Origin: Eubacteriales bacterium
GTDB taxonomy: Bacteria > Bacillota > Clostridia > Oscillospirales > SIG627
Direction: 5' to 3'
NCBI GenBank assembly: GCA_045594565.1
Contig: JAZNYT010000054.1
Location: 734 to 64,733, forward strand
DNA: 64,000 bases
In this document: positions 9,688-15,454 of the stretch, one piece after another
Layout: every line of letters starts with the position of its first letter
Position numbering within the stretch: position 1 is the stretch's first letter
Notes under the pieces: generated by a model
The model's input: the letters and a program-made list of their open reading frames with translations, nothing else
What the model was told of the DNA's origin: nothing
Database searches by the model: none
Program-made: the position numbers and the translations under genes

Positions 9688-10209
9688 ATGTTTATTATAA
9701 TCAGAATACTCGGAATGGTGGGACTTGCACTCGGACTTCTTGCCTTTCTGTTCAGACATCATAAGCAGATTGTAATGTGTAAGATGTTTTCGGTGCTTTC
9801 CTTTTCTATGCAATATTTTCTTATAGGTCCTTCTGCATATACTGCGGCGCTTCTTGACCTGTTTTCAGCTATTCGTAATTTTTTCTTCTATAGGCTTGTT
9901 GAAAAGAAAAAATCCACAACACCTATTATAATTATTTCATCCGTGGTTATGGCGACACTCGGCATCGTTTCCTGGGCAGGCCCCATAACGCTTCTTGCGA
10001 CGATACCGAAGATTATGACCTCCGTTTCCTACGGGCTGAAAAACGAAAAGCTGTTAAGACTCATAACCCTGCCGTCCTGTGTTTGCTGGATTGCCTACAA
10101 TCTTATTGTGAAAAACTATGAGGCGGCAATAGGAGATTTTGTAAACTTCTCCACAATCATTTTTGCAATAATCAAATACGACGTAATAGAAAGAAGAGAG
10201 AAAGCGTAA
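9688..10209 (+). CDS. YgjV-like inner membrane protein
   Basis: 173 aa with about five TM helices. The overall pattern resembles YgjV-family proteins. Starts 1 nt after the upstream gene. Confidence 0.5.
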   Translation: MFIIIRILGMVGLALGLLAFLFRHHKQIVMCKMFSVLSFSMQYFLIGPSAYTAALLDLFSAIRNFFFYRLVEKKKSTTPIIIISSVVMATLGIVSWAGPITLLATIPKIMTSVSYGLKNEKLLRLITLPSCVCWIAYNLIVKNYEAAIGDFVNFSTIIFAIIKYDVIERREKA

Positions 10210-10223
10210 GCCTTCTCTCTTCT
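10192..10223. terminator. hairpin between convergent genes (possible bidirectional terminator)
   Basis: Perfect 11-bp stem agaagagagaa/ttctctcttct with a 10-nt loop spanning the YgjV-like stop codon. There is no clean U-tract on either side. Confidence 0.35.
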
Positions 10224-10234
10224 TCCCATATATA

Positions 10235-11263
10235 CTATAAAATTTCTGCCATATCAAGTATGAGTCTTTCGGTCTTTTCCCAGCCGAGACATGGGTCGGT
10301 TATGGATTTCCCCCATACGTTTTCACCTATCTTCTGTGCTCCGTCCTCAATGTAGCTTTCAATCATAAAGCCCTTTACCAGCTTCTTTATATCACTGTTG
10401 TGACGGCAGGAGTGGAGCACCTCCTTTGCGATACGTGTCTGTTCGAGATACTTTTTTCCTGAATTTGAGTGGTTCGTATCGACGATGAGGGCGGGATTCT
10501 GAAGTCCCGATGCGGCATATGTTTCGGACAGATGCAGAAGGTCCTCGTAGTGATAGTTGGGAATCGCTTCACCGTGACGGTTGACATATCCTCGGAGTAT
10601 GGCGTGAGCGTGGGGGTTACCCTCGGAGTTTACCTCCCAACCTCGATAGATGAAGGTGTGCTTATGCTGTGCGGCGGTAATGGAGTTCATCATAACCGAA
10701 ATATCTCCGCTTGTAGGATTTTTCATACCGACGGGCACGTCGATTCCGCTGGATACAAGGCGGTGCTGTTGGTTTTCTACCGATCTTGCACCGATTGCAA
10801 CGTATCCGAGCACGTCGCTGAGGTATCTGTAGTTTTCGGGATAGAGCATTTCGTCGGCACAGGAAAAGCCTGTTTCGGCAAGTGCTCTCATATGGAGCTC
10901 GCGGATGGCAACGATGCCTTTATACATATCGGGTTTGGAATTGGGGTCGGGCTGATGAAGCATTCCCTTATAGCCGTCTCCTGTTGTACGTGGCTTGTTG
11001 GTGTAGATTCTTGGCACAATGAAAATCTTGTCCTTTACTTTTTCCTGCACCTCGCGTAGTCTTGAAATGTAATCGATAACGCTATCCTCGTTGTCGGCAG
11101 AGCAAGGACCGATAATAAGGACAAGTCTGTCATTTTTTCCTTCAAAAATCTGCTTTAATTCTATTTTACGCTTTTCAACCAAATTCTCAAGCTCAAGGGA
11201 AAGGGGATAAAGCTCCTTTACCTCCTGCGGAATGGGAAGCTTTCTTTCAAAAATCATACTCAT
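10235..11263 (-). CDS. 3-deoxy-7-phosphoheptulonate (DAHP) synthase, class I
   Basis: 342 aa. IIGPCSADNE, KPRTTGDGYKGML and the overall length match AroF/G/H-type DAHP synthases. GAAGGA lies 7 nt upstream of ATG 11263. Confidence 0.85.
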   Translation of the reverse strand: MSMIFERKLPIPQEVKELYPLSLELENLVEKRKIELKQIFEGKNDRLVLIIGPCSADNEDSVIDYISRLREVQEKVKDKIFIVPRIYTNKPRTTGDGYKGMLHQPDPNSKPDMYKGIVAIRELHMRALAETGFSCADEMLYPENYRYLSDVLGYVAIGARSVENQQHRLVSSGIDVPVGMKNPTSGDISVMMNSITAAQHKHTFIYRGWEVNSEGNPHAHAILRGYVNRHGEAIPNYHYEDLLHLSETYAASGLQNPALIVDTNHSNSGKKYLEQTRIAKEVLHSCRHNSDIKKLVKGFMIESYIEDGAQKIGENVWGKSITDPCLGWEKTERLILDMAEIL

Positions 11264-11286
11264 CTTAAAATCCTTCTTTCTTTATC

Positions 11287-11322
11287 AAAAAAATAAACCT
11301 CACTCCGTTACGAGTGAGGTTT
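11287..11322 (-). terminator. intrinsic terminator acting as attenuator in the DAHP synthase leader
   Basis: On the minus strand: 11-bp stem AAACCUCACUC/GAGUGAGGUUU, 6-nt loop, then A-UUUUUUU. It ends about 24 nt before the DAHP synthase start codon. Confidence 0.7.
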
Positions 11323-11344
11323 TTGTTTTCAAAAACTAATATTT

Positions 11345-11440
11345 CTATCTCACAGGTAACTTTTGCACGACGGAATAAGCACAGTAAAAAAATACTGCGC
11401 TAAAATAAAAAAAGAAGCCTGCAAAAATGTTTGTGAACAT
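11345..11440 (-). CDS. candidate Phe/Tyr-rich leader peptide (31 aa)
   Basis: Not in the supplied ORF track because it is too short. ATG 11440 lies 8 nt after AAGGA. It encodes MFTNIFAGFFFYFSAVFFYCAYSVVQKLPVR, with 8 Phe and 3 Tyr in 31 residues. It sits between a consensus promoter and the terminator above. Confidence 0.5.
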   Translation of the reverse strand: MFTNIFAGFFFYFSAVFFYCAYSVVQKLPVR

Positions 11441-11474
11441 AGTTTATTTCCTTTATCGGTTTTTGTTGTGGATG

Positions 11475-11503
11475 ATTATACTCTTAAAATTTTCATTTGT
11501 CAA
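11475..11503 (-). promoter_or_regulatory. consensus sigma-A promoter of the DAHP synthase leader
   Basis: On the minus strand: TTGACA (11503-11498), 17-nt spacer, TATAAT (11480-11475). Confidence 0.7.
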
Positions 11504-11520
11504 TAGCTTTTTTAAAAATT

Positions 11521-13149
11521 TTAAAGTTTTATATTTCTGACTTTTTCACGCAGCCTCAGAACGTGGGGAGGTGATACCGAGAGTTCGTCTATTCCCATTT
11601 CAAGAAAGTCCTTTGTAAGAGAAAGGTCAGCGGCAAGTTCACCGCAGATACCTATCCACGCACCATGGCGGTGGGCATTATCCGACGCCGTACGAATAAG
11701 CCTCATCACTGCCTCGTGATGAGGATTTGAGAATTCCTCAAGCTTCGGGTTCTGTCTGTCACAGGCGAGGGTATACTGGATAAGGTCGTTTGTTCCAACG
11801 CTGAAAAAGTCGAAAAGGGGCGCCAGTCTGTCGCTTATAATTGCGGCGGCAGGTGTCTCTATCATTATTCCAAGCTCAATATCACGGCTATATGCCGTGC
11901 CCTTAGCATCAAGCTCCTTCTTTACATCACCGCATATTTCAAGTATTTTTTCCGCCTCCCATACACTTGCAATCATAGGAAACATTATACCGAGCTTTCC
12001 GAAGGAGGAGGCGGCAAAAAGAGCGCGGAGCTGAGTCCTAAAGATTTCGGGGCGTGTGAGGCAGAGTCTTATGGCACGCAGTCCCAGCGCGGGATTTTCC
12101 TCGTTGTCGAGATTGAAGTATGACACTCTCTTGTCTGCACCAATATCAAGTGTTCTTATTATCACTCTTTTTCCGGGCATTGCAAGAAGCACCTTTTTGT
12201 ATATCTCAAACTGCTCCTCCTCGGTGGGAAAGTCATCCCTTTCCAGATATAAAAACTCGCTTCTGAAAAGTCCTATTCCGCCTGCATCGCTCGCAAGGGC
12301 TGACCCTATATCCTCGGCAGAGCCAATGTTGGCATAAATGTTTATTCTTCTGCCGTCAAGAGTGACGTTTTCCTTTCCTCGAAGGTTCTTTAAAAGCTCC
12401 TTTTTCTCGCGACACGCTTTTTCTTTTTCAAGAAGGCGCATCTTCGTTTCGGCGTCGGGGGATATGAAGATTTCTCCCGTACCCCCGTCCACCGCAACTA
12501 CGTCTCCCTCCTTCACGTTGAGAAGGAAGGAGTCGCCAACTCCGATTACCGCAGGAATATTCATACTTCTCGCTAAAATTGCGGTGTGTGAATTAGAGGA
12601 GCCGTGCGCCGTAATGAAGCCGAGTATCTTGCTTTTGTCAAAAAGCACCGTTTCTGAGGGCGTCAGGTCGTAGGCGCATATTATGGAGGGCTGCGATAGA
12701 TTACTCATACCGTTTGTGTCCTCTGTCATACAAGCGATAAGTCTGTCTGAAACGTCCTTTACGTCAATGGCGCGTGATTTCATATAATGGTCGTCCATAG
12801 AAGAGAACATTTCGGAAAAATTGCTCGACGTGATAGATACGGCGTATTCGGCGTTTACCTTCTGATACTCTATAATGCTCTTTATCGACTCCGAAAAGTC
12901 CTCGTCGTCAAGCATCATTATATGAATCTGGAAAATTTCAGCCCCTGTTTCACCAACCTCGCGAAGCGCTTTCTCATAGATTTCGGATAGTATGGCTTTG
13001 GCTTTCTCACGCGCTTTTTCGAATCGTTTTATTTCCGCTTCTGCATCCTCTATCCCTTTACGGCGTATCTTCGTTTCCTTTTTTTTGAAAACGGTAACGG
13101 GGCCTTGTGCTATAGCACCCGAGATGCCTTTTCCTATAAATTTAAGCAT
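11521..13149 (-). CDS. ptsI: phosphoenolpyruvate-protein phosphotransferase (PTS enzyme I)
   Basis: 542 aa. Has the active-site region GFITAHGSSNSHTAILARSMNIPAV and the C-terminal PEP-utilizer motif FFSVGTNDLIQYTLA. Follows ptsH. Confidence 0.95.
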   Translation of the reverse strand: MLKFIGKGISGAIAQGPVTVFKKKETKIRRKGIEDAEAEIKRFEKAREKAKAILSEIYEKALREVGETGAEIFQIHIMMLDDEDFSESIKSIIEYQKVNAEYAVSITSSNFSEMFSSMDDHYMKSRAIDVKDVSDRLIACMTEDTNGMSNLSQPSIICAYDLTPSETVLFDKSKILGFITAHGSSNSHTAILARSMNIPAVIGVGDSFLLNVKEGDVVAVDGGTGEIFISPDAETKMRLLEKEKACREKKELLKNLRGKENVTLDGRRINIYANIGSAEDIGSALASDAGGIGLFRSEFLYLERDDFPTEEEQFEIYKKVLLAMPGKRVIIRTLDIGADKRVSYFNLDNEENPALGLRAIRLCLTRPEIFRTQLRALFAASSFGKLGIMFPMIASVWEAEKILEICGDVKKELDAKGTAYSRDIELGIMIETPAAAIISDRLAPLFDFFSVGTNDLIQYTLACDRQNPKLEEFSNPHHEAVMRLIRTASDNAHRHGAWIGICGELAADLSLTKDFLEMGIDELSVSPPHVLRLREKVRNIKL

Positions 13150-13157
13150 AAATCACC

Positions 13158-13415
13158 TCAAAGATTTTTTTCAAAAAAGTCCTTTATTGCTACCGCCGCT
13201 TCCTCCTCGTCCTCACCGAGAATACTTATATCGATAACGTCCCCGTTTTTAATACCGAGGGACATGAGCGCCATAAGCTTTGTGGCATCCACTTCTTTCC
13301 CCGCCTTTTTTATAAGCACCTTGCTTTTACACGCCCTTGCGGTTTTGGAAAGAAGACCTGCAGGACGGGCGTGAAGTCCTATTTCGTCTTTTACTTTGTA
13401 TTCAAAGGTTATCAT
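13158..13415 (-). CDS. ptsH: phosphocarrier protein HPr (His15 present; Lys at the Ser46 position)
   Basis: 85 aa with the GLHARPAG His15 motif. In the stretch aligned to B. subtilis KSIMGVMSLG it reads TKLMALMSLG, which puts Lys where Ser46 would be. Confidence 0.9.
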   Translation of the reverse strand: MITFEYKVKDEIGLHARPAGLLSKTARACKSKVLIKKAGKEVDATKLMALMSLGIKNGDVIDISILGEDEEEAAVAIKDFFEKNL

Positions 13416-15454
13416 TATTTCCTCCCGAGCTCACCTATTTCGTCACCAACGGATACCTCTCCCGTCTTTTTTGACTCAAAGGTAAATTCGTCCGAATTTG
13501 TCACTACCATAGGTGTTGTAAGCTTGTATCCGCTTTTACTGATGCCGTTTATATCAAAGGTAATAAGAAGGTCGCCGCGCTTTACCTCCGCCCCTTCCTT
13601 TACCGCTACCTTAAAGTGAAGTCCTTTGAGCTTTACGGTATCAAGACCTACGTGGAGAAGTATTTCGCCGCCATTATCTGTCTTGATATTTATAGCGTGA
13701 GAGGTGTCGAAGACGCTTTCCACCTTGCCGTCGCAGGGGGAAAAGAGCTTGCCCTCTGTGGGAAGAAAGGCGATACCTTCGCCGAGAATACCCTTGGAAA
13801 AGGCTTCATCCTCTACCTTGTCGAGAGGAATTATTTTACCCTTTACAGGAGAGAAAAGGGAAGTGGCTTCATTTTCCTTGTGGGATGAGTCCATATAGGC
13901 TTCGAGCTTTGATTTTACCACCGATACGTGAGGACCGTATATAACCTGAATACCGGTGCCCTTCTTAATTACCCCCGACGCTCCGCTCTTTTTAAGGGCG
14001 CTTTCATCGGCTTTATCGGGATTTTTGAGGGTGACTCTCAGTCTTGTGGCACAGCTATCAAGGTCGGCAATATTATCTTTTCCGCCAAGTCCTTGAAGGA
14101 TAAGAGCGCTCACGTCGTCGCCCTCATGGCGACGCGTCAGATAGTCCTCTTTCGTGTAAAGCTTTGATTCCTCGCCTTCTGCCTCACGACCCGGTGTTTT
14201 AAAGTCGAATTTCTTTATAAGGAAATAGAAAACGAAGTAGTAAATAACTGCATAAACAAGACCTACAAGCACTATCCATATCCAGTTGGTTTTGGAATTG
14301 CCCTGTAGTATACCGAAAAGGGTCAAGTCGATAACCCCTCCCGAAAATGTCATGCCTACGCCGACGTTCAGAATGTGCATCAGCATATAAGAAAGACCTG
14401 CAAGTATACAGTGCACGATATACATAAGAGGGGCAACGAAAAGGAAGGTGAACTCTATCGGCTCTGTAATACCCGTAAGAATTGAGGTGAGAGATGCGGA
14501 GAGAAGAAGTCCTCCCACAAGCTTTTTCTTTTCGGGCTTTGCCGTTTTATACATAGCAAGGGCGGCGGCAGGAAGACCGAAAATCATAAAGGGGAACTTA
14601 CCCGACATAAAACGTGTTGCAGATACCGAGAACACCTCGGTTGCCTTTGAGGCAAGCTCGGCGAAGAAGATGTTTTGCGCACCCTGAACGAGATTACCGT
14701 CGACAAAGACAGCCCCGCCAAGCTCTGTCTGCCAAAAGGGCATATAGAATACGTGGTGAAGTCCGAAGGGAATGAGGGCACGTTCGATGATTCCATATAT
14801 CCAGGTGCCGATATATCCCGAATTCAGAACAAGGTTTCCGAGAGTGGCGATTCCAGTCTGTATAGGCTGCCATATATAGAACATCAGAATTCCGACAACA
14901 AGGTAGGTAAGCGCCGAAATGATAGGTACGAATCTGGTACCGCCGAAGAATGAAAGCACCTGTGGAAGCTTTATGGTATAGAAGCGGTTGTGAAGCGCCG
15001 CAACGCCGAGACCTACGATAATACCGCCGAAAACACCCATCTGAAGCGTTGTGATGCCAAGCACCGAGGCGGTAGTGTTTTCACCGAGTGCTGTCACTCC
15101 GCCGTTTATATTTATAAGGGCGGAAATGGCGGCGTTCATAACGAGAAAGGCGATAGCACCCGACAGAGCGGCAACCTCCTTCTCCTTTTTAGCCATACCG
15201 ATGGCAACGCCGACGGCAAAAAGAAGGGCGAGATTGTCGAAAATGACACTGCCCGTTTTTGCCATAATGTCAAGAATAGAATAAAGTATACTGCCCTGAC
15301 TTATGAGTCCTGTCAGTCCGTATTCCTCAAGAGTTGTGGGATTGGTAAAGGATGATCCTATACCGAGAAGAAGTCCTGCAACGGGAAGGAGCGCTATGGG
15401 GAGCATAAACGATCTGCCTACTCTTTGCAGTACAGAAAAGAATTTGTCCTTCAA
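13415..15454 (-). CDS. PTS glucose/N-acetylglucosamine-family transporter, fused EIICBA
   Basis: 679 aa. N-terminal EIIC (LQRVGRSFMLPIALLPVAGLLLGIG), EIIB cysteine motif (DSCATRLRV), and a C-terminal EIIA-Glc domain (HAINIKTDNGGEILLHVGLDTV). TTG start 9 nt after GGAGG. Confidence 0.9.
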   Translation of the reverse strand: MKDKFFSVLQRVGRSFMLPIALLPVAGLLLGIGSSFTNPTTLEEYGLTGLISQGSILYSILDIMAKTGSVIFDNLALLFAVGVAIGMAKKEKEVAALSGAIAFLVMNAAISALININGGVTALGENTTASVLGITTLQMGVFGGIIVGLGVAALHNRFYTIKLPQVLSFFGGTRFVPIISALTYLVVGILMFYIWQPIQTGIATLGNLVLNSGYIGTWIYGIIERALIPFGLHHVFYMPFWQTELGGAVFVDGNLVQGAQNIFFAELASKATEVFSVSATRFMSGKFPFMIFGLPAAALAMYKTAKPEKKKLVGGLLLSASLTSILTGITEPIEFTFLFVAPLMYIVHCILAGLSYMLMHILNVGVGMTFSGGVIDLTLFGILQGNSKTNWIWIVLVGLVYAVIYYFVFYFLIKKFDFKTPGREAEGEESKLYTKEDYLTRRHEGDDVSALILQGLGGKDNIADLDSCATRLRVTLKNPDKADESALKKSGASGVIKKGTGIQVIYGPHVSVVKSKLEAYMDSSHKENEATSLFSPVKGKIIPLDKVEDEAFSKGILGEGIAFLPTEGKLFSPCDGKVESVFDTSHAINIKTDNGGEILLHVGLDTVKLKGLHFKVAVKEGAEVKRGDLLITFDINGISKSGYKLTTPMVVTNSDEFTFESKKTGEVSVGDEIGELGRK

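What the first reader, a model, noticed from the sequence alone, without database searches (positions are those of the whole stretch)
11287..11503. Phe/Tyr-rich leader peptide plus terminator upstream of DAHP synthase: ribosome-mediated attenuation in a Firmicute
A consensus promoter (TTGACA-17-TATAAT) lies about 210 nt upstream of the DAHP synthase start.
- The transcript would first encode a 31-codon ORF with its own AAGGA RBS: MFTNIFAGFFFYFSAVFFYCAYSVVQKLPVR. It has 8 Phe and 3 Tyr, including the runs FFFYF and FFY.
- About 22 nt after that ORF's stop codon comes a canonical intrinsic terminator (11-bp stem and a U7 tract), which ends about 24 nt before the DAHP synthase start codon.
- This is the architecture of pheL/pheA-type attenuators, placed here on the first committed enzyme of aromatic amino-acid synthesis.
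- The segment CCUGUGAGAUAG spanning the leader stop codon has limited complementarity (GUGAG/CUCAC) to the 5' arm of the terminator and could be the antiterminator strand.

To my knowledge, leader-peptide attenuation of aromatic pathway genes is described mainly in Proteobacteria, while Firmicutes typically use T-boxes or TRAP. That would make this an unusual regulatory solution if it is real.
Basis: partly seen in the sequence, partly recalled or inferred. Interest (0 to 1): 0.65.

Follow-up and report, generated by a model that had tools for sequence, protein, structure and literature searches.

The report
Phe/Tyr leader-peptide attenuator of DAHP synthase
A short upstream reading frame packed with phenylalanine and tyrosine codons, followed by a terminator hairpin, most likely lets this gut Clostridia bacterium switch on the first enzyme of aromatic amino-acid synthesis when those two amino acids run short; the mechanism is a known kind, but this sequence family is not catalogued in Rfam.

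Summary
There is a 12/12 sigma-70 promoter, an RBS, and a 31-codon ORF with 8 Phe and 3 Tyr. An 11-bp terminator with a U7 tract ends 23 nt before the DAHP synthase start.

Comparison with relatives supports ribosome-mediated attenuation. The leader travels with DAHP synthase in 10 related uncultured Clostridia, whatever the upstream gene. A diverged version precedes a pheA-tyrA-DAHP synthase operon in Candidatus Fimenecus-like bacteria.

- The promoter hexamers, RBS, start codon and Phe/Tyr codons are conserved, while the rest of the peptide is free.
- A hairpin inside the ORF covaries at three pairs, and the terminator covaries as well.
- The real antiterminator is GUUAC-NN-GUGAG (the last leader codons) pairing with CUCAC-NN-GUAAC (the terminator's 5' arm plus loop). 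It is paired in all 15 leaders and shows one compensatory change.
- A natural frameshift rewrites the peptide's C-terminus but keeps this RNA segment.

There is no significant Rfam match. The kind is already known: E. coli pheL, C. glutamicum aroR-aroF, the predicted uORFC-13-1 of Acholeplasma aroF, and BCAA and His leaders in Firmicutes. It is therefore a new member of a known kind, of moderate interest. No experimental data exist for it.

The parts
11475..11503 (-). Sigma-70-type promoter TTGACA-17-TATAAT. The transcription start is inferred at about 11468.
   Evidence: It matches 12 of 12 positions. Both hexamers are invariant while the spacer sequence varies in 5 aligned orthologous leaders and in further leaders.
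11447..11454 (-). Leader RBS AAAGGAAA, 6 nt upstream of the leader ATG
   Evidence: Read from the sequence. An RBS-like A/G-rich motif is kept in both leader subfamilies.
11345..11440 (-). Leader ORF of 31 codons plus UAG: MFTNIFAGFFFYFSAVFFYCAYSVVQKLPVR
   Evidence: The ORF is intact in all 16 full-length leaders recovered. It has no Pfam match.
11402..11416 (-). Sensor codon cluster 1: codons 9-13, UUC UUU UUU UAU UUU (FFFYF)
   Evidence: Among 9 type-A leaders only Phe-to-Tyr or synonymous changes occur here. The type-B leaders have YFF(N/S)F at the matching place.
11378..11401 (-). Hairpin H inside the ORF: AGCGCAGUA / UACUGUGCU, 9 bp. Its loop UUUUUU is Phe codons 17-18; sensor cluster 2, FFY, spans 11392..11384.
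   Evidence: All 15 sequences are fully paired, and 3 pairs change on both sides. RNAalifold predicts the hairpin independently.
11417..11442 (-). Segment 1, the 5' strands of the anti-antiterminator. CUAUGUUCACA pairs with UGUGAGAUAG. UUUUUGCAGGC pairs with CCGUCGUGCAAAAG (11374..11360).
   Evidence: Seen in the minimum-free-energy folds. A segment 1:2 pairing appears in all 13 folded leaders, but its sequence differs between subfamilies and it was not tested for covariation.
11349..11360 (-). Segment 2, GUUACCUGUGAG: the 5' strand of the antiterminator. It covers the last base of codon 27 through the second base of codon 31; the stop codon begins 1 nt after its end.
   Evidence: It is invariant apart from the two internal-loop bases and one compensated change in L114. 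Codons UUA, GUG and AGA are invariant at degenerate positions.
11307..11318 (-). Segment 3, CUCACUCGUAAC: the upper 5' arm of the terminator plus five of the six loop bases (GUAAC). It pairs with segment 2 (antiterminator) or with segment 4 (terminator).
   Evidence: The segment 2:3 duplex is -13.6 kcal/mol, matched or beaten by 9 of 2000 shuffles. All 150 cells are paired across 15 sequences. The loop bases GUAAC are conserved, unlike the rest of the loop.
11287..11322 (-). Intrinsic terminator AAACCUCACUC-GUAACG-GAGUGAGGUUU, then A and U7
   Evidence: -18.1 kcal/mol. The stem base and the two positions not shared with the antiterminator covary: U-A / U.G / C-G and C-G / U-A.
10235..11263 (-). 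Regulated gene: 3-deoxy-7-phosphoheptulonate (DAHP) synthase, 342 aa, with its own RBS AAGGA at 11275..11271
   Evidence: PF00793, E = 3.4e-45. Homologues are named 3-deoxy-7-phosphoheptulonate synthase by their sources.

Best explanation
This is a classical ribosome-mediated (leader-peptide) transcription attenuator. It senses charged tRNA-Phe and tRNA-Tyr and controls a monocistronic DAHP synthase gene.

Transcription starts at the consensus promoter, and a ribosome translates the 31-codon leader.
- When Phe-tRNA and Tyr-tRNA are plentiful, the ribosome runs to the UAG that directly follows segment 2 and covers that segment. Segment 3 then pairs with segment 4, the terminator forms, and transcription stops about 25 nt before the gene.
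- When either charged tRNA is scarce, the ribosome stalls at codons 9-13 or 17-19. That opens the long leader hairpin (segment 1:2 plus hairpin H) but leaves segment 2 free, 30-60 nt ahead of the ribosome. Segment 2 pairs with segment 3 as soon as segment 3 is transcribed, the terminator cannot form, and RNA polymerase reads into the DAHP synthase gene.
- Without any translation, segment 1:2 holds segment 2 and termination is the default.

What is shown: the elements, their conservation, covariation of hairpin H and of the terminator, conserved complementarity of the antiterminator, and the match between leader codon content and the genes regulated.

What is inferred: the stalling itself, the timing, and any role of hairpin H as a pause or coupling element.
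For: 1. The anatomy is as described.

2. The leader travels with the gene. It lies upstream of DAHP synthase orthologues of 88-97% identity whose upstream neighbour is ptsI, an acyltransferase, divergent SpoIIE, divergent RepA_N, a ribose-phosphate pyrophosphokinase or an unknown gene.

3. A diverged homologue precedes a different aromatic operon. In Candidatus Fimenecus-like contigs (nhmmer E = 4e-12) the downstream genes are CM-PDT-ACT, prephenate dehydrogenase and DAHP synthase. A leader rich in both Phe and Tyr thus controls the Phe branch, the Tyr branch and the common entry enzyme. All 7 extra family members from the metagenome scan precede the same CM-PDT gene.

4. The codon pattern fits. 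Sensor codons change only between Phe and Tyr or synonymously, and the other residues are free.

5. The RNA structure is supported.
- Hairpin H is 100% paired with 3 pairs changed on both sides.
- RNAalifold recovers hairpin H and the terminator, with 6 of 17 pairs compensatory.
- The antiterminator is 100% paired in 15 leaders, with one G-C to A-U double change (L114) and one U-A to U.G change (L086).
- Its complementarity beats 1991 of 2000 shuffles in the window.

6. The L085 frameshift changes the peptide's C-terminus but keeps segment 2.

7. The stop codon lies between -4 and +16 nt from the end of segment 2 in all 13 leaders modelled.

8. In nearly every case, RNA 3' of a ribosome stalled at a Phe or Tyr codon folds into the full antiterminator.

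9. No T-box or other Rfam family matches here.
Against: - There is no transcript-end, reporter or starvation data. The only RNA evidence is one low-depth metatranscriptome contig (11539..11299) that ends inside the terminator. It begins upstream of the leader promoter and could be DNA carry-over.
- The antiterminator is short (5+5 bp around a 2x2 internal loop) and almost invariant, so covariation rests on a single sequence. Five of the 15 sequences were retrieved with a pattern that fixes segments 2 and 3.
- If base pairs are allowed to span a stalled ribosome, simple thermodynamic modelling does not always favour the antiterminator in type-A leaders.
- From my own knowledge (Johnson et al. 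2020, Nature): in at least B. subtilis, transcription outruns translation. Ribosome-mediated attenuation there would need a polymerase pause, which has not been shown here.
- The core peptide FSAVFFYCA is well conserved, so a role for the peptide itself cannot be fully excluded.
Confidence: 0.85

Rival explanations
1. The small ORF encodes a functional hydrophobic (membrane) micropeptide with its own terminator. DAHP synthase is expressed by constitutive leaky read-through.
For: The peptide is hydrophobic, is long enough for one transmembrane helix and ends in basic residues. The core FSAVFFYCA is conserved across type-A leaders.
Against: - Residues 2-8 and 22-27 are free.
- The L085 frameshift replaces the C-terminus while the RNA segment is kept.
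- Compensatory changes in hairpin H alter amino acids.
- Codons 28, 30 and 31 are invariant at degenerate sites.
- The element is always immediately upstream of aromatic biosynthesis genes, and no promoter fits in the 23 nt between the terminator and the gene.
- There is no Pfam match.
Confidence: 0.04
2. The terminator/antiterminator switch is set by a trans-acting factor that binds the conserved hairpin H or the U-rich loop: a protein, uncharged tRNA or a metabolite. The ORF would be incidental or only auxiliary.
For: Hairpin H is the best-supported structure, and the classical model does not strictly require it. Brewer et al. also noted an extra base-paired substructure of unknown role in the aroF uORF motif (PMC8632094).
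Against: The RBS, AUG and reading frame are kept in all 16 full-length leaders across two diverged subfamilies. The stop codon always lies at or just after segment 2. Sensor positions change only between Phe and Tyr. There is no T-box or other Rfam match.
Confidence: 0.07
3. The hairpin is simply the terminator of the upstream PTS operon (ptsG-ptsH-ptsI). The promoter and ORF are chance features of AT-rich spacer DNA.
For: No terminator lies between the ptsI stop (11521) and the leader promoter. A metatranscriptome contig runs from inside ptsI to the terminator.
Against: The same leader and terminator occur where the upstream gene is divergent or unrelated (L083, L085, L113) and where the upstream gene has its own terminator (L117). 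The promoter hexamers are invariant. The ORF's Phe/Tyr content is improbable by chance. In the window the terminator probably serves both purposes.
Confidence: 0.02

Closest known systems
E. coli pheL-pheA attenuator (Rfam Phe_leader RF01859)
   Same: It has a short leader ORF with runs of Phe codons, an intrinsic terminator before an aromatic biosynthesis gene, and alternative 1:2 / 2:3 / 3:4 pairings. Its U-rich coding run is also slippery (PMC3082878).
   Different: There is no detectable homology: 19.3 bits against a gathering score of 55, E = 0.79. The leader here is about twice as long, senses Tyr as well as Phe, controls DAHP synthase (or pheA-tyrA-aroF), and has a covarying hairpin that presents sensor codons in its loop.
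Corynebacterium glutamicum aroR leader peptide upstream of the aroF (DAHP synthase) operon (Neshat et al. 2014, as summarised in PMC11802643)
   Same: It is a leader peptide with a Phe-Tyr-Phe motif directly upstream of DAHP synthase. Read-through was shown experimentally to rise under Phe limitation.
   Different: It is from an actinobacterium and has a single F-Y-F motif, against 10-11 aromatic codons in two clusters here.
uORFC-13-1 motif upstream of aroF in Acholeplasma and environmental sequences (Brewer et al. 2021, PMC8632094)
   Same: The published description matches closely: -35/-10 boxes, RBS, start codon, a U run encoding Phe, an adjacent intrinsic terminator, an extra base-paired substructure, and a position exclusively upstream of aroF. 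It may be the same family or a sister family.
   Different: It is reported only from Acholeplasma and unassigned environmental DNA, with 24 representatives. Its alignment is not held in the paper's supplement as text, and no Rfam model matched, so identity could not be tested.
Leader-peptide attenuators already described in Firmicutes: Leu/phe leader RF01743 of Lactococcus lactis (PMC2864571), His leaders in bacilli (PMC2965389), BCAA leaders in Listeria (PMC5864092) and S. aureus (PMC5794164)
   Same: They use the same mechanism in the same phylum. This shows that ribosome-mediated attenuation is used in Bacillota alongside T-boxes.
   Different: They sense other amino acids or regulate other genes, and they come from Bacilli rather than Clostridia. 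No Rfam match to RF01743 appeared at E <= 10.
T-box leaders (RF00230), the usual Firmicute solution for aromatic amino-acid genes
   Same: They sit in the same regulatory position, use a terminator/antiterminator switch and sense tRNA charging.
   Different: T-boxes bind uncharged tRNA directly and need no translation. No T-box was detected here or upstream of DAHP synthase in the 20 related loci scanned with Rfam.

Membership tests
Ribosome-mediated (leader-peptide) transcription attenuator | A promoter and a short translatable ORF (RBS plus start codon) in the 5' leader of an amino-acid biosynthesis gene | tested here: met
   The features are conserved in orthologues.
Ribosome-mediated (leader-peptide) transcription attenuator | The leader ORF is enriched in, and has tandem runs of, codons for the amino acid(s) made by the regulated pathway | tested here: met
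   There are 11 Phe/Tyr among 31 codons (FFFYF, FFY). The ORF ranks 1 of 349 small ORFs and is matched by 58 of 20,000 shuffles. Sensor codons are conserved as Phe or Tyr only.
Ribosome-mediated (leader-peptide) transcription attenuator | An intrinsic terminator lies between the leader ORF and the structural gene | tested here: met
   An 11-bp stem plus U7. It covaries across 13 sequences.
Ribosome-mediated (leader-peptide) transcription attenuator | A mutually exclusive antiterminator shares a strand with the terminator | tested here: met
   Segment 2:3 pairing is present in all 15 leaders. It beats shuffles, 9 of 2000. There is one compensatory change (L114). Support is mostly conservation rather than covariation.
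Ribosome-mediated (leader-peptide) transcription attenuator | The geometry lets ribosome position decide: a ribosome at the stop codon masks the antiterminator strand, and a ribosome at the sensor codons leaves it free | tested here: met
   The stop codon lies -4 to +16 nt from the end of segment 2. RNA 3' of a ribosome stalled at a Phe or Tyr codon folds into the antiterminator in nearly every case.
Ribosome-mediated (leader-peptide) transcription attenuator | Read-through rises on starvation for the cognate amino acid and depends on translation of the leader | not testable with these tools
   Only one low-depth metatranscriptome contig was found.
Rfam Phe_leader RF01859 | Covariance-model score at or above the gathering score (55 bits) | tested here: not met
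   19.3 bits, E = 0.79.
Rfam Leu/phe leader RF01743 | A covariance-model match | tested here: not met
   No match at the gathering score or at E <= 10.
T-box leader RF00230 | A covariance-model match (specifier loop and T-box sequence) | tested here: not met
   No match. The model did detect a T-box elsewhere, in L076, so the search works.
uORFC-13-1 (aroF uORF motif, Brewer et al. 2021) | Upstream of aroF, with promoter boxes, RBS and start, a U run encoding Phe, an adjacent terminator and an extra stem | tested here: met
   All the described features are present.
uORFC-13-1 (aroF uORF motif, Brewer et al. 2021) | Sequence and structure homology to the published consensus or alignment | not testable with these tools

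The most novel reading that the evidence does not exclude
The covarying hairpin H presents the second Phe/Tyr codon cluster in its loop and sits just after the first cluster. In this reading it is not a passive part of the 1:2 structure. It would act as a dedicated RNA-polymerase pause or coupling device (or a ribosome-slowing element) that makes ribosome-mediated attenuation workable in a phylum where transcription normally outruns translation. This leader would then define a widespread, uncatalogued family in gut Clostridia, possibly the same as uORFC-13-1. An even less likely variant is that the conserved FSAVFFYCA nascent peptide contributes to stalling.
Probability: 0.2. Interest if true: 0.55.

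Novelty: new member of a known kind. Interest (0 to 1): 0.35.

Why it matters
- It adds a well-supported case of leader-peptide attenuation of aromatic amino-acid synthesis in uncultured animal-gut Clostridia. It has two subfamilies with at least 18 representatives. Textbooks assign this kind of control in Firmicutes to T-boxes or TRAP.
- Together with two other, unrelated Phe/Tyr leaders seen in passing upstream of DAHP synthase in other Clostridia, it suggests that ribosome-mediated attenuation arose repeatedly and is commoner in Bacillota than annotation shows. Gene callers and Rfam both miss it.
- In practice it gives a model that could be added to RNA family databases. It also flags small hydrophobic ORFs that should not be annotated as membrane proteins.

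Tried and rejected
- Rfam gave nothing: no match at gathering thresholds on the whole window or on 20 related loci, and only sub-threshold noise at E <= 10 on the leader.
- The ORF-and-terminator scan of 80 GTDB-representative DAHP synthase loci showed that most relatives lack this leader. Many have DAHP synthase as the last gene of a larger aro operon. My home-made terminator finder was too strict, so I dropped it.
- nhmmer profiles of the leader found no further copies in the window or in L001-L080 beyond L011 and L014.
- Most of the 24 hits from the metagenome pattern scan were unrelated long palindromes or coding sequence. Seven were true family members. Because the pattern fixes segments 2 and 3, those seven cannot serve as independent evidence for conservation of the antiterminator.
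- RNA evidence was thin. Only contig-level metatranscriptomes exist, with one uninformative low-depth contig.
- Thermodynamic modelling with a masked ribosome footprint, but with pairs allowed to span the ribosome, gave mixed results in type-A leaders. I replaced it by folding only the RNA 3' of the ribosome.
- The supplement of the uORFC-13-1 paper holds no alignment as text.
- I considered and rejected the membrane micropeptide, the PTS-operon terminator alone and the T-box; see the rival explanations.

Full report
**Observation.** On the minus strand, downstream of the ptsI stop codon (11521), the window carries the following elements in order.
- A perfect TTGACA-17-TATAAT promoter at 11503..11475, the only 12/12 match in 10000..13600.
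- An RBS, AAAGGAAA, at 11454..11447.
- A 31-codon ORF at 11440..11345 encoding MFTNIFAGFFFYFSAVFFYCAYSVVQKLPVR.
- A 22-nt spacer.
- An intrinsic terminator with an 11-bp stem (11322..11295) and a 6-nt loop, followed by A + U7 at 11293..11287.
- After 23 more nt, the ATG of a 342-aa DAHP synthase (PF00793, E = 3e-45).

Every detail in the finding is correct. The features exceed chance. The ORF has the highest Phe+Tyr fraction of 349 small ATG ORFs in the window, and only 58 of 20,000 dinucleotide shuffles reach 11 aromatic codons. The leader RNA folds 5.4 sd better than shuffles.

**Organism and context.** The closest DAHP synthase homologues come from uncultured Clostridia, labelled Oscillospiraceae, Acutalibacteraceae or Ruminococcaceae metagenome-assembled genomes (MAGs). 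The sequence occurs in bovine and other animal gut metagenomes. The gene is monocistronic, because the next gene (a YgjV-like membrane protein) is convergent. Upstream lies a PTS operon (EIICBA, HPr, EI) with no terminator of its own before the leader promoter.

**Comparative evidence: the leader travels with the gene.** I fetched contigs for DAHP synthase orthologues. All those of 88-97% identity carry a homologous leader of about 250 nt. These are L081-L087, L113, L114 and L117.
- Their upstream neighbours differ: ptsI, an acyltransferase, divergent SpoIIE, divergent RepA_N, ribose-phosphate pyrophosphokinase, or an unknown gene.
- In L117 the upstream gene has its own terminator before the leader promoter.
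- Orthologues of 87% identity or less (L001, L088, L115, L116, L002-L007) lack the leader.

A profile of the leader also detected a diverged homologue (type B) in Candidatus Fimenecus MAGs (L011, L014; E = 4e-12). There it precedes an operon encoding chorismate mutase-prephenate dehydratase-ACT, prephenate dehydrogenase and DAHP synthase. A pattern scan of metagenome contigs added seven more type-B leaders, all in front of the same CM-PDT gene. So a leader rich in both Phe and Tyr codons always sits in front of the common entry enzyme alone, or of the Phe branch, the Tyr branch and the entry enzyme together.

**What is conserved and what is free.**
- The -35 and -10 hexamers, the RBS and the AUG are conserved, while the promoter spacer varies.
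- Among nine type-A ORFs, codons 9-13 and 17-19 show only Phe-to-Tyr or synonymous changes.
- Codons 2-8 and 22-27 are free, with residue sets such as KNRT, ACGSY, HLRSY and AGRV.
- Codons 28, 30 and 31 (UUA, GUG, AGA) are invariant even at four- to six-fold degenerate third positions.

In addition there are RNA-level constraints at the 3' end of the ORF.

**RNA structures.** Four elements recur in all 13 leaders that were folded.

1. A long leader hairpin. Its outer strands (segment 1, near the 5' end of the ORF) pair with segment 2 at the 3' end of the ORF.
2. Inside it, hairpin H (window 11401..11378) has 9 bp, and its loop holds the second cluster of Phe/Tyr codons. It is 100% paired in 15 sequences, with three pairs changed on both sides (C-G/U-A, U-A/C-G, and five pair types at the closing pair). 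These compensatory changes alter amino acids (AV to VA, YCA to SYA), so the constraint is on the RNA.
3. The terminator. RNAalifold recovers it and hairpin H independently, with 6 of 17 pairs compensatory. Covariation falls exactly at the stem base and at the two 5'-arm positions that are unpaired in the antiterminator. The part shared with the antiterminator is invariant.
4. The antiterminator. GUUAC-NN-GUGAG (segment 2, 11360..11349) pairs with CUCAC-NN-GUAAC (segment 3, 11318..11307, which is the terminator's 5' arm plus loop).
- It is paired in all 150 cells of 15 sequences.
- L086 has a U-A to U.G change.
- L114 was retrieved by protein and not by pattern. It has G to A in segment 2 (a synonymous AAG to AAA) together with C to U in the terminator loop, giving G-C to A-U.
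- The terminator loop bases GUAAC are conserved while the rest of the loop varies.
- In the window the duplex (-13.6 kcal/mol) is matched or beaten by only 9 of 2000 shuffles of the upstream RNA. For two type-B leaders the count is 0 of 2000.
- L085 is a natural experiment. A 1-nt deletion rewrites the peptide's C-terminus (...CAFSACKCYK* instead of ...QKLPVR*), yet GTTACAAGTGAG is retained and the new stop lies inside it.

**Mechanism.** The geometry is that of a classical attenuator.
- The stop codon lies -4 to +16 nt from the end of segment 2 in every leader. A terminating ribosome therefore covers segment 2 or sits in the antiterminator loop, and the terminator forms.
- A ribosome stalled at a Phe or Tyr codon leaves segment 2 free. 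In nearly every case the RNA between the stalled ribosome and the end of segment 3 then folds into the full antiterminator.
- Without translation, segment 1:2 competes for segment 2.
- The terminator (-11 to -25 kcal/mol) is usually the more stable of the two in type-A leaders, where the antiterminator segment folds at -12 to -14.5; in most type-B leaders the isolated antiterminator segment folds at -14 to -21.5, equal to or below the terminator. As in the trp leader, the choice must be kinetic.
- These last steps are inference. Modelling that lets pairs span the ribosome gave mixed results in type A.

**Comparison with what is known.**
- There is no Rfam match at gathering scores. The best relevant sub-threshold hit is Phe_leader RF01859 at 19.3 bits against 55. 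There is no T-box.
- The mechanism is the classical one of E. coli pheL-pheA.
- The same logic on DAHP synthase is shown experimentally in C. glutamicum, where an aroR leader with an F-Y-F motif is induced by Phe limitation (PMC11802643).
- Brewer et al. 2021 predicted it for aroF in Acholeplasma and unassigned environmental DNA as the uORFC-13-1 motif (PMC8632094). Their description is promoter boxes, RBS, start, a U run encoding Phe, an adjacent terminator and an extra stem. It fits this family closely, but I could not test identity.
- Leader-peptide attenuators are also published for other amino acids in Firmicutes: PMC2965389, PMC5864092, PMC5794164, and RF01743 in PMC2864571.
- The claim that this is an unusual solution for a Firmicute is therefore only partly right. 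I found no report for Clostridia, but my literature searches were limited to the held open-access library.

**Verdict.** This is a real Phe/Tyr leader-peptide attenuator with good comparative support. It is a new sequence family, or an extension of uORFC-13-1, within a well-known kind. It is moderately interesting for annotation and for the question of how ribosome-mediated attenuation works in Bacillota. It is not surprising to a specialist, and experimental confirmation is lacking.

Noticed in passing
L072 2725-2802; L074 about 1958-2020; L076 2685-2765: A second, unrelated family of Phe/Tyr-rich leader peptides lies directly upstream of DAHP synthase in other Clostridia/Lachnospiraceae-labelled MAGs. 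The peptides are MRANKFFYYFYYFAKGCPSSVNSRA, MNNKFFNYFYYFGKGCRHMR and MMKNNTAYFYFYYFDMGCPSFVISEE. Each is followed by a conserved ACGGACAGUCCGCAU... terminator-like hairpin, and L072 has a consensus promoter.
   Followed up: partly
L052 1788-1856: A third leader type, MINKKATNNFFFFFINAMDFKL (five consecutive Phe, no Tyr), is followed by a strong terminator. It sits upstream of a prephenate dehydratase-ACT gene and then DAHP synthase.
   Followed up: partly
window 11299-11539: There is no terminator between the ptsI stop (11521) and the leader promoter, so PTS-operon read-through probably ends at the attenuator terminator. One metatranscriptome contig (run X11, depth about 2) spans 11539..11299 and ends inside the terminator.
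   Followed up: partly
L001, L088, L115, L116 against L081-L087, L113, L114, L117: The leader has a patchy distribution. It is present upstream of DAHP synthase orthologues of 88% identity or more, and absent at 87% or less. There a short promoter region follows the terminator of an upstream MFS transporter gene.
   Followed up: partly
window 11402-11416 and 11387-11392: The long U runs inside the leader ORF (CUUCUUUUUUUAUUUU and UAUUUUUUUAC) are potentially slippery for the ribosome or for RNA polymerase, as reported for E. coli pheL (PMC3082878). The effect on the leader's decoding is unknown.
   Followed up: no
window 11295-11322, + strand: The consensus scan also scores the terminator hairpin on the plus strand, with the tail TTGTTTTCAA. 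No plus-strand gene ends nearby, so this is probably just the symmetry of the hairpin.
   Followed up: no
L010, L039, L063, L064, L078: DAHP synthase genes 71-78% identical to the window's lie on contigs labelled Bacteroidaceae, Treponema or Spirochaetaceae. This could be horizontal transfer or mis-binned contigs.
   Followed up: no
L076 416-665: A bona fide T-box leader (RF00230, 110.6 bits) lies about 2.3 kb upstream of the DAHP synthase leader in the same locus, presumably for another gene.
   Followed up: no
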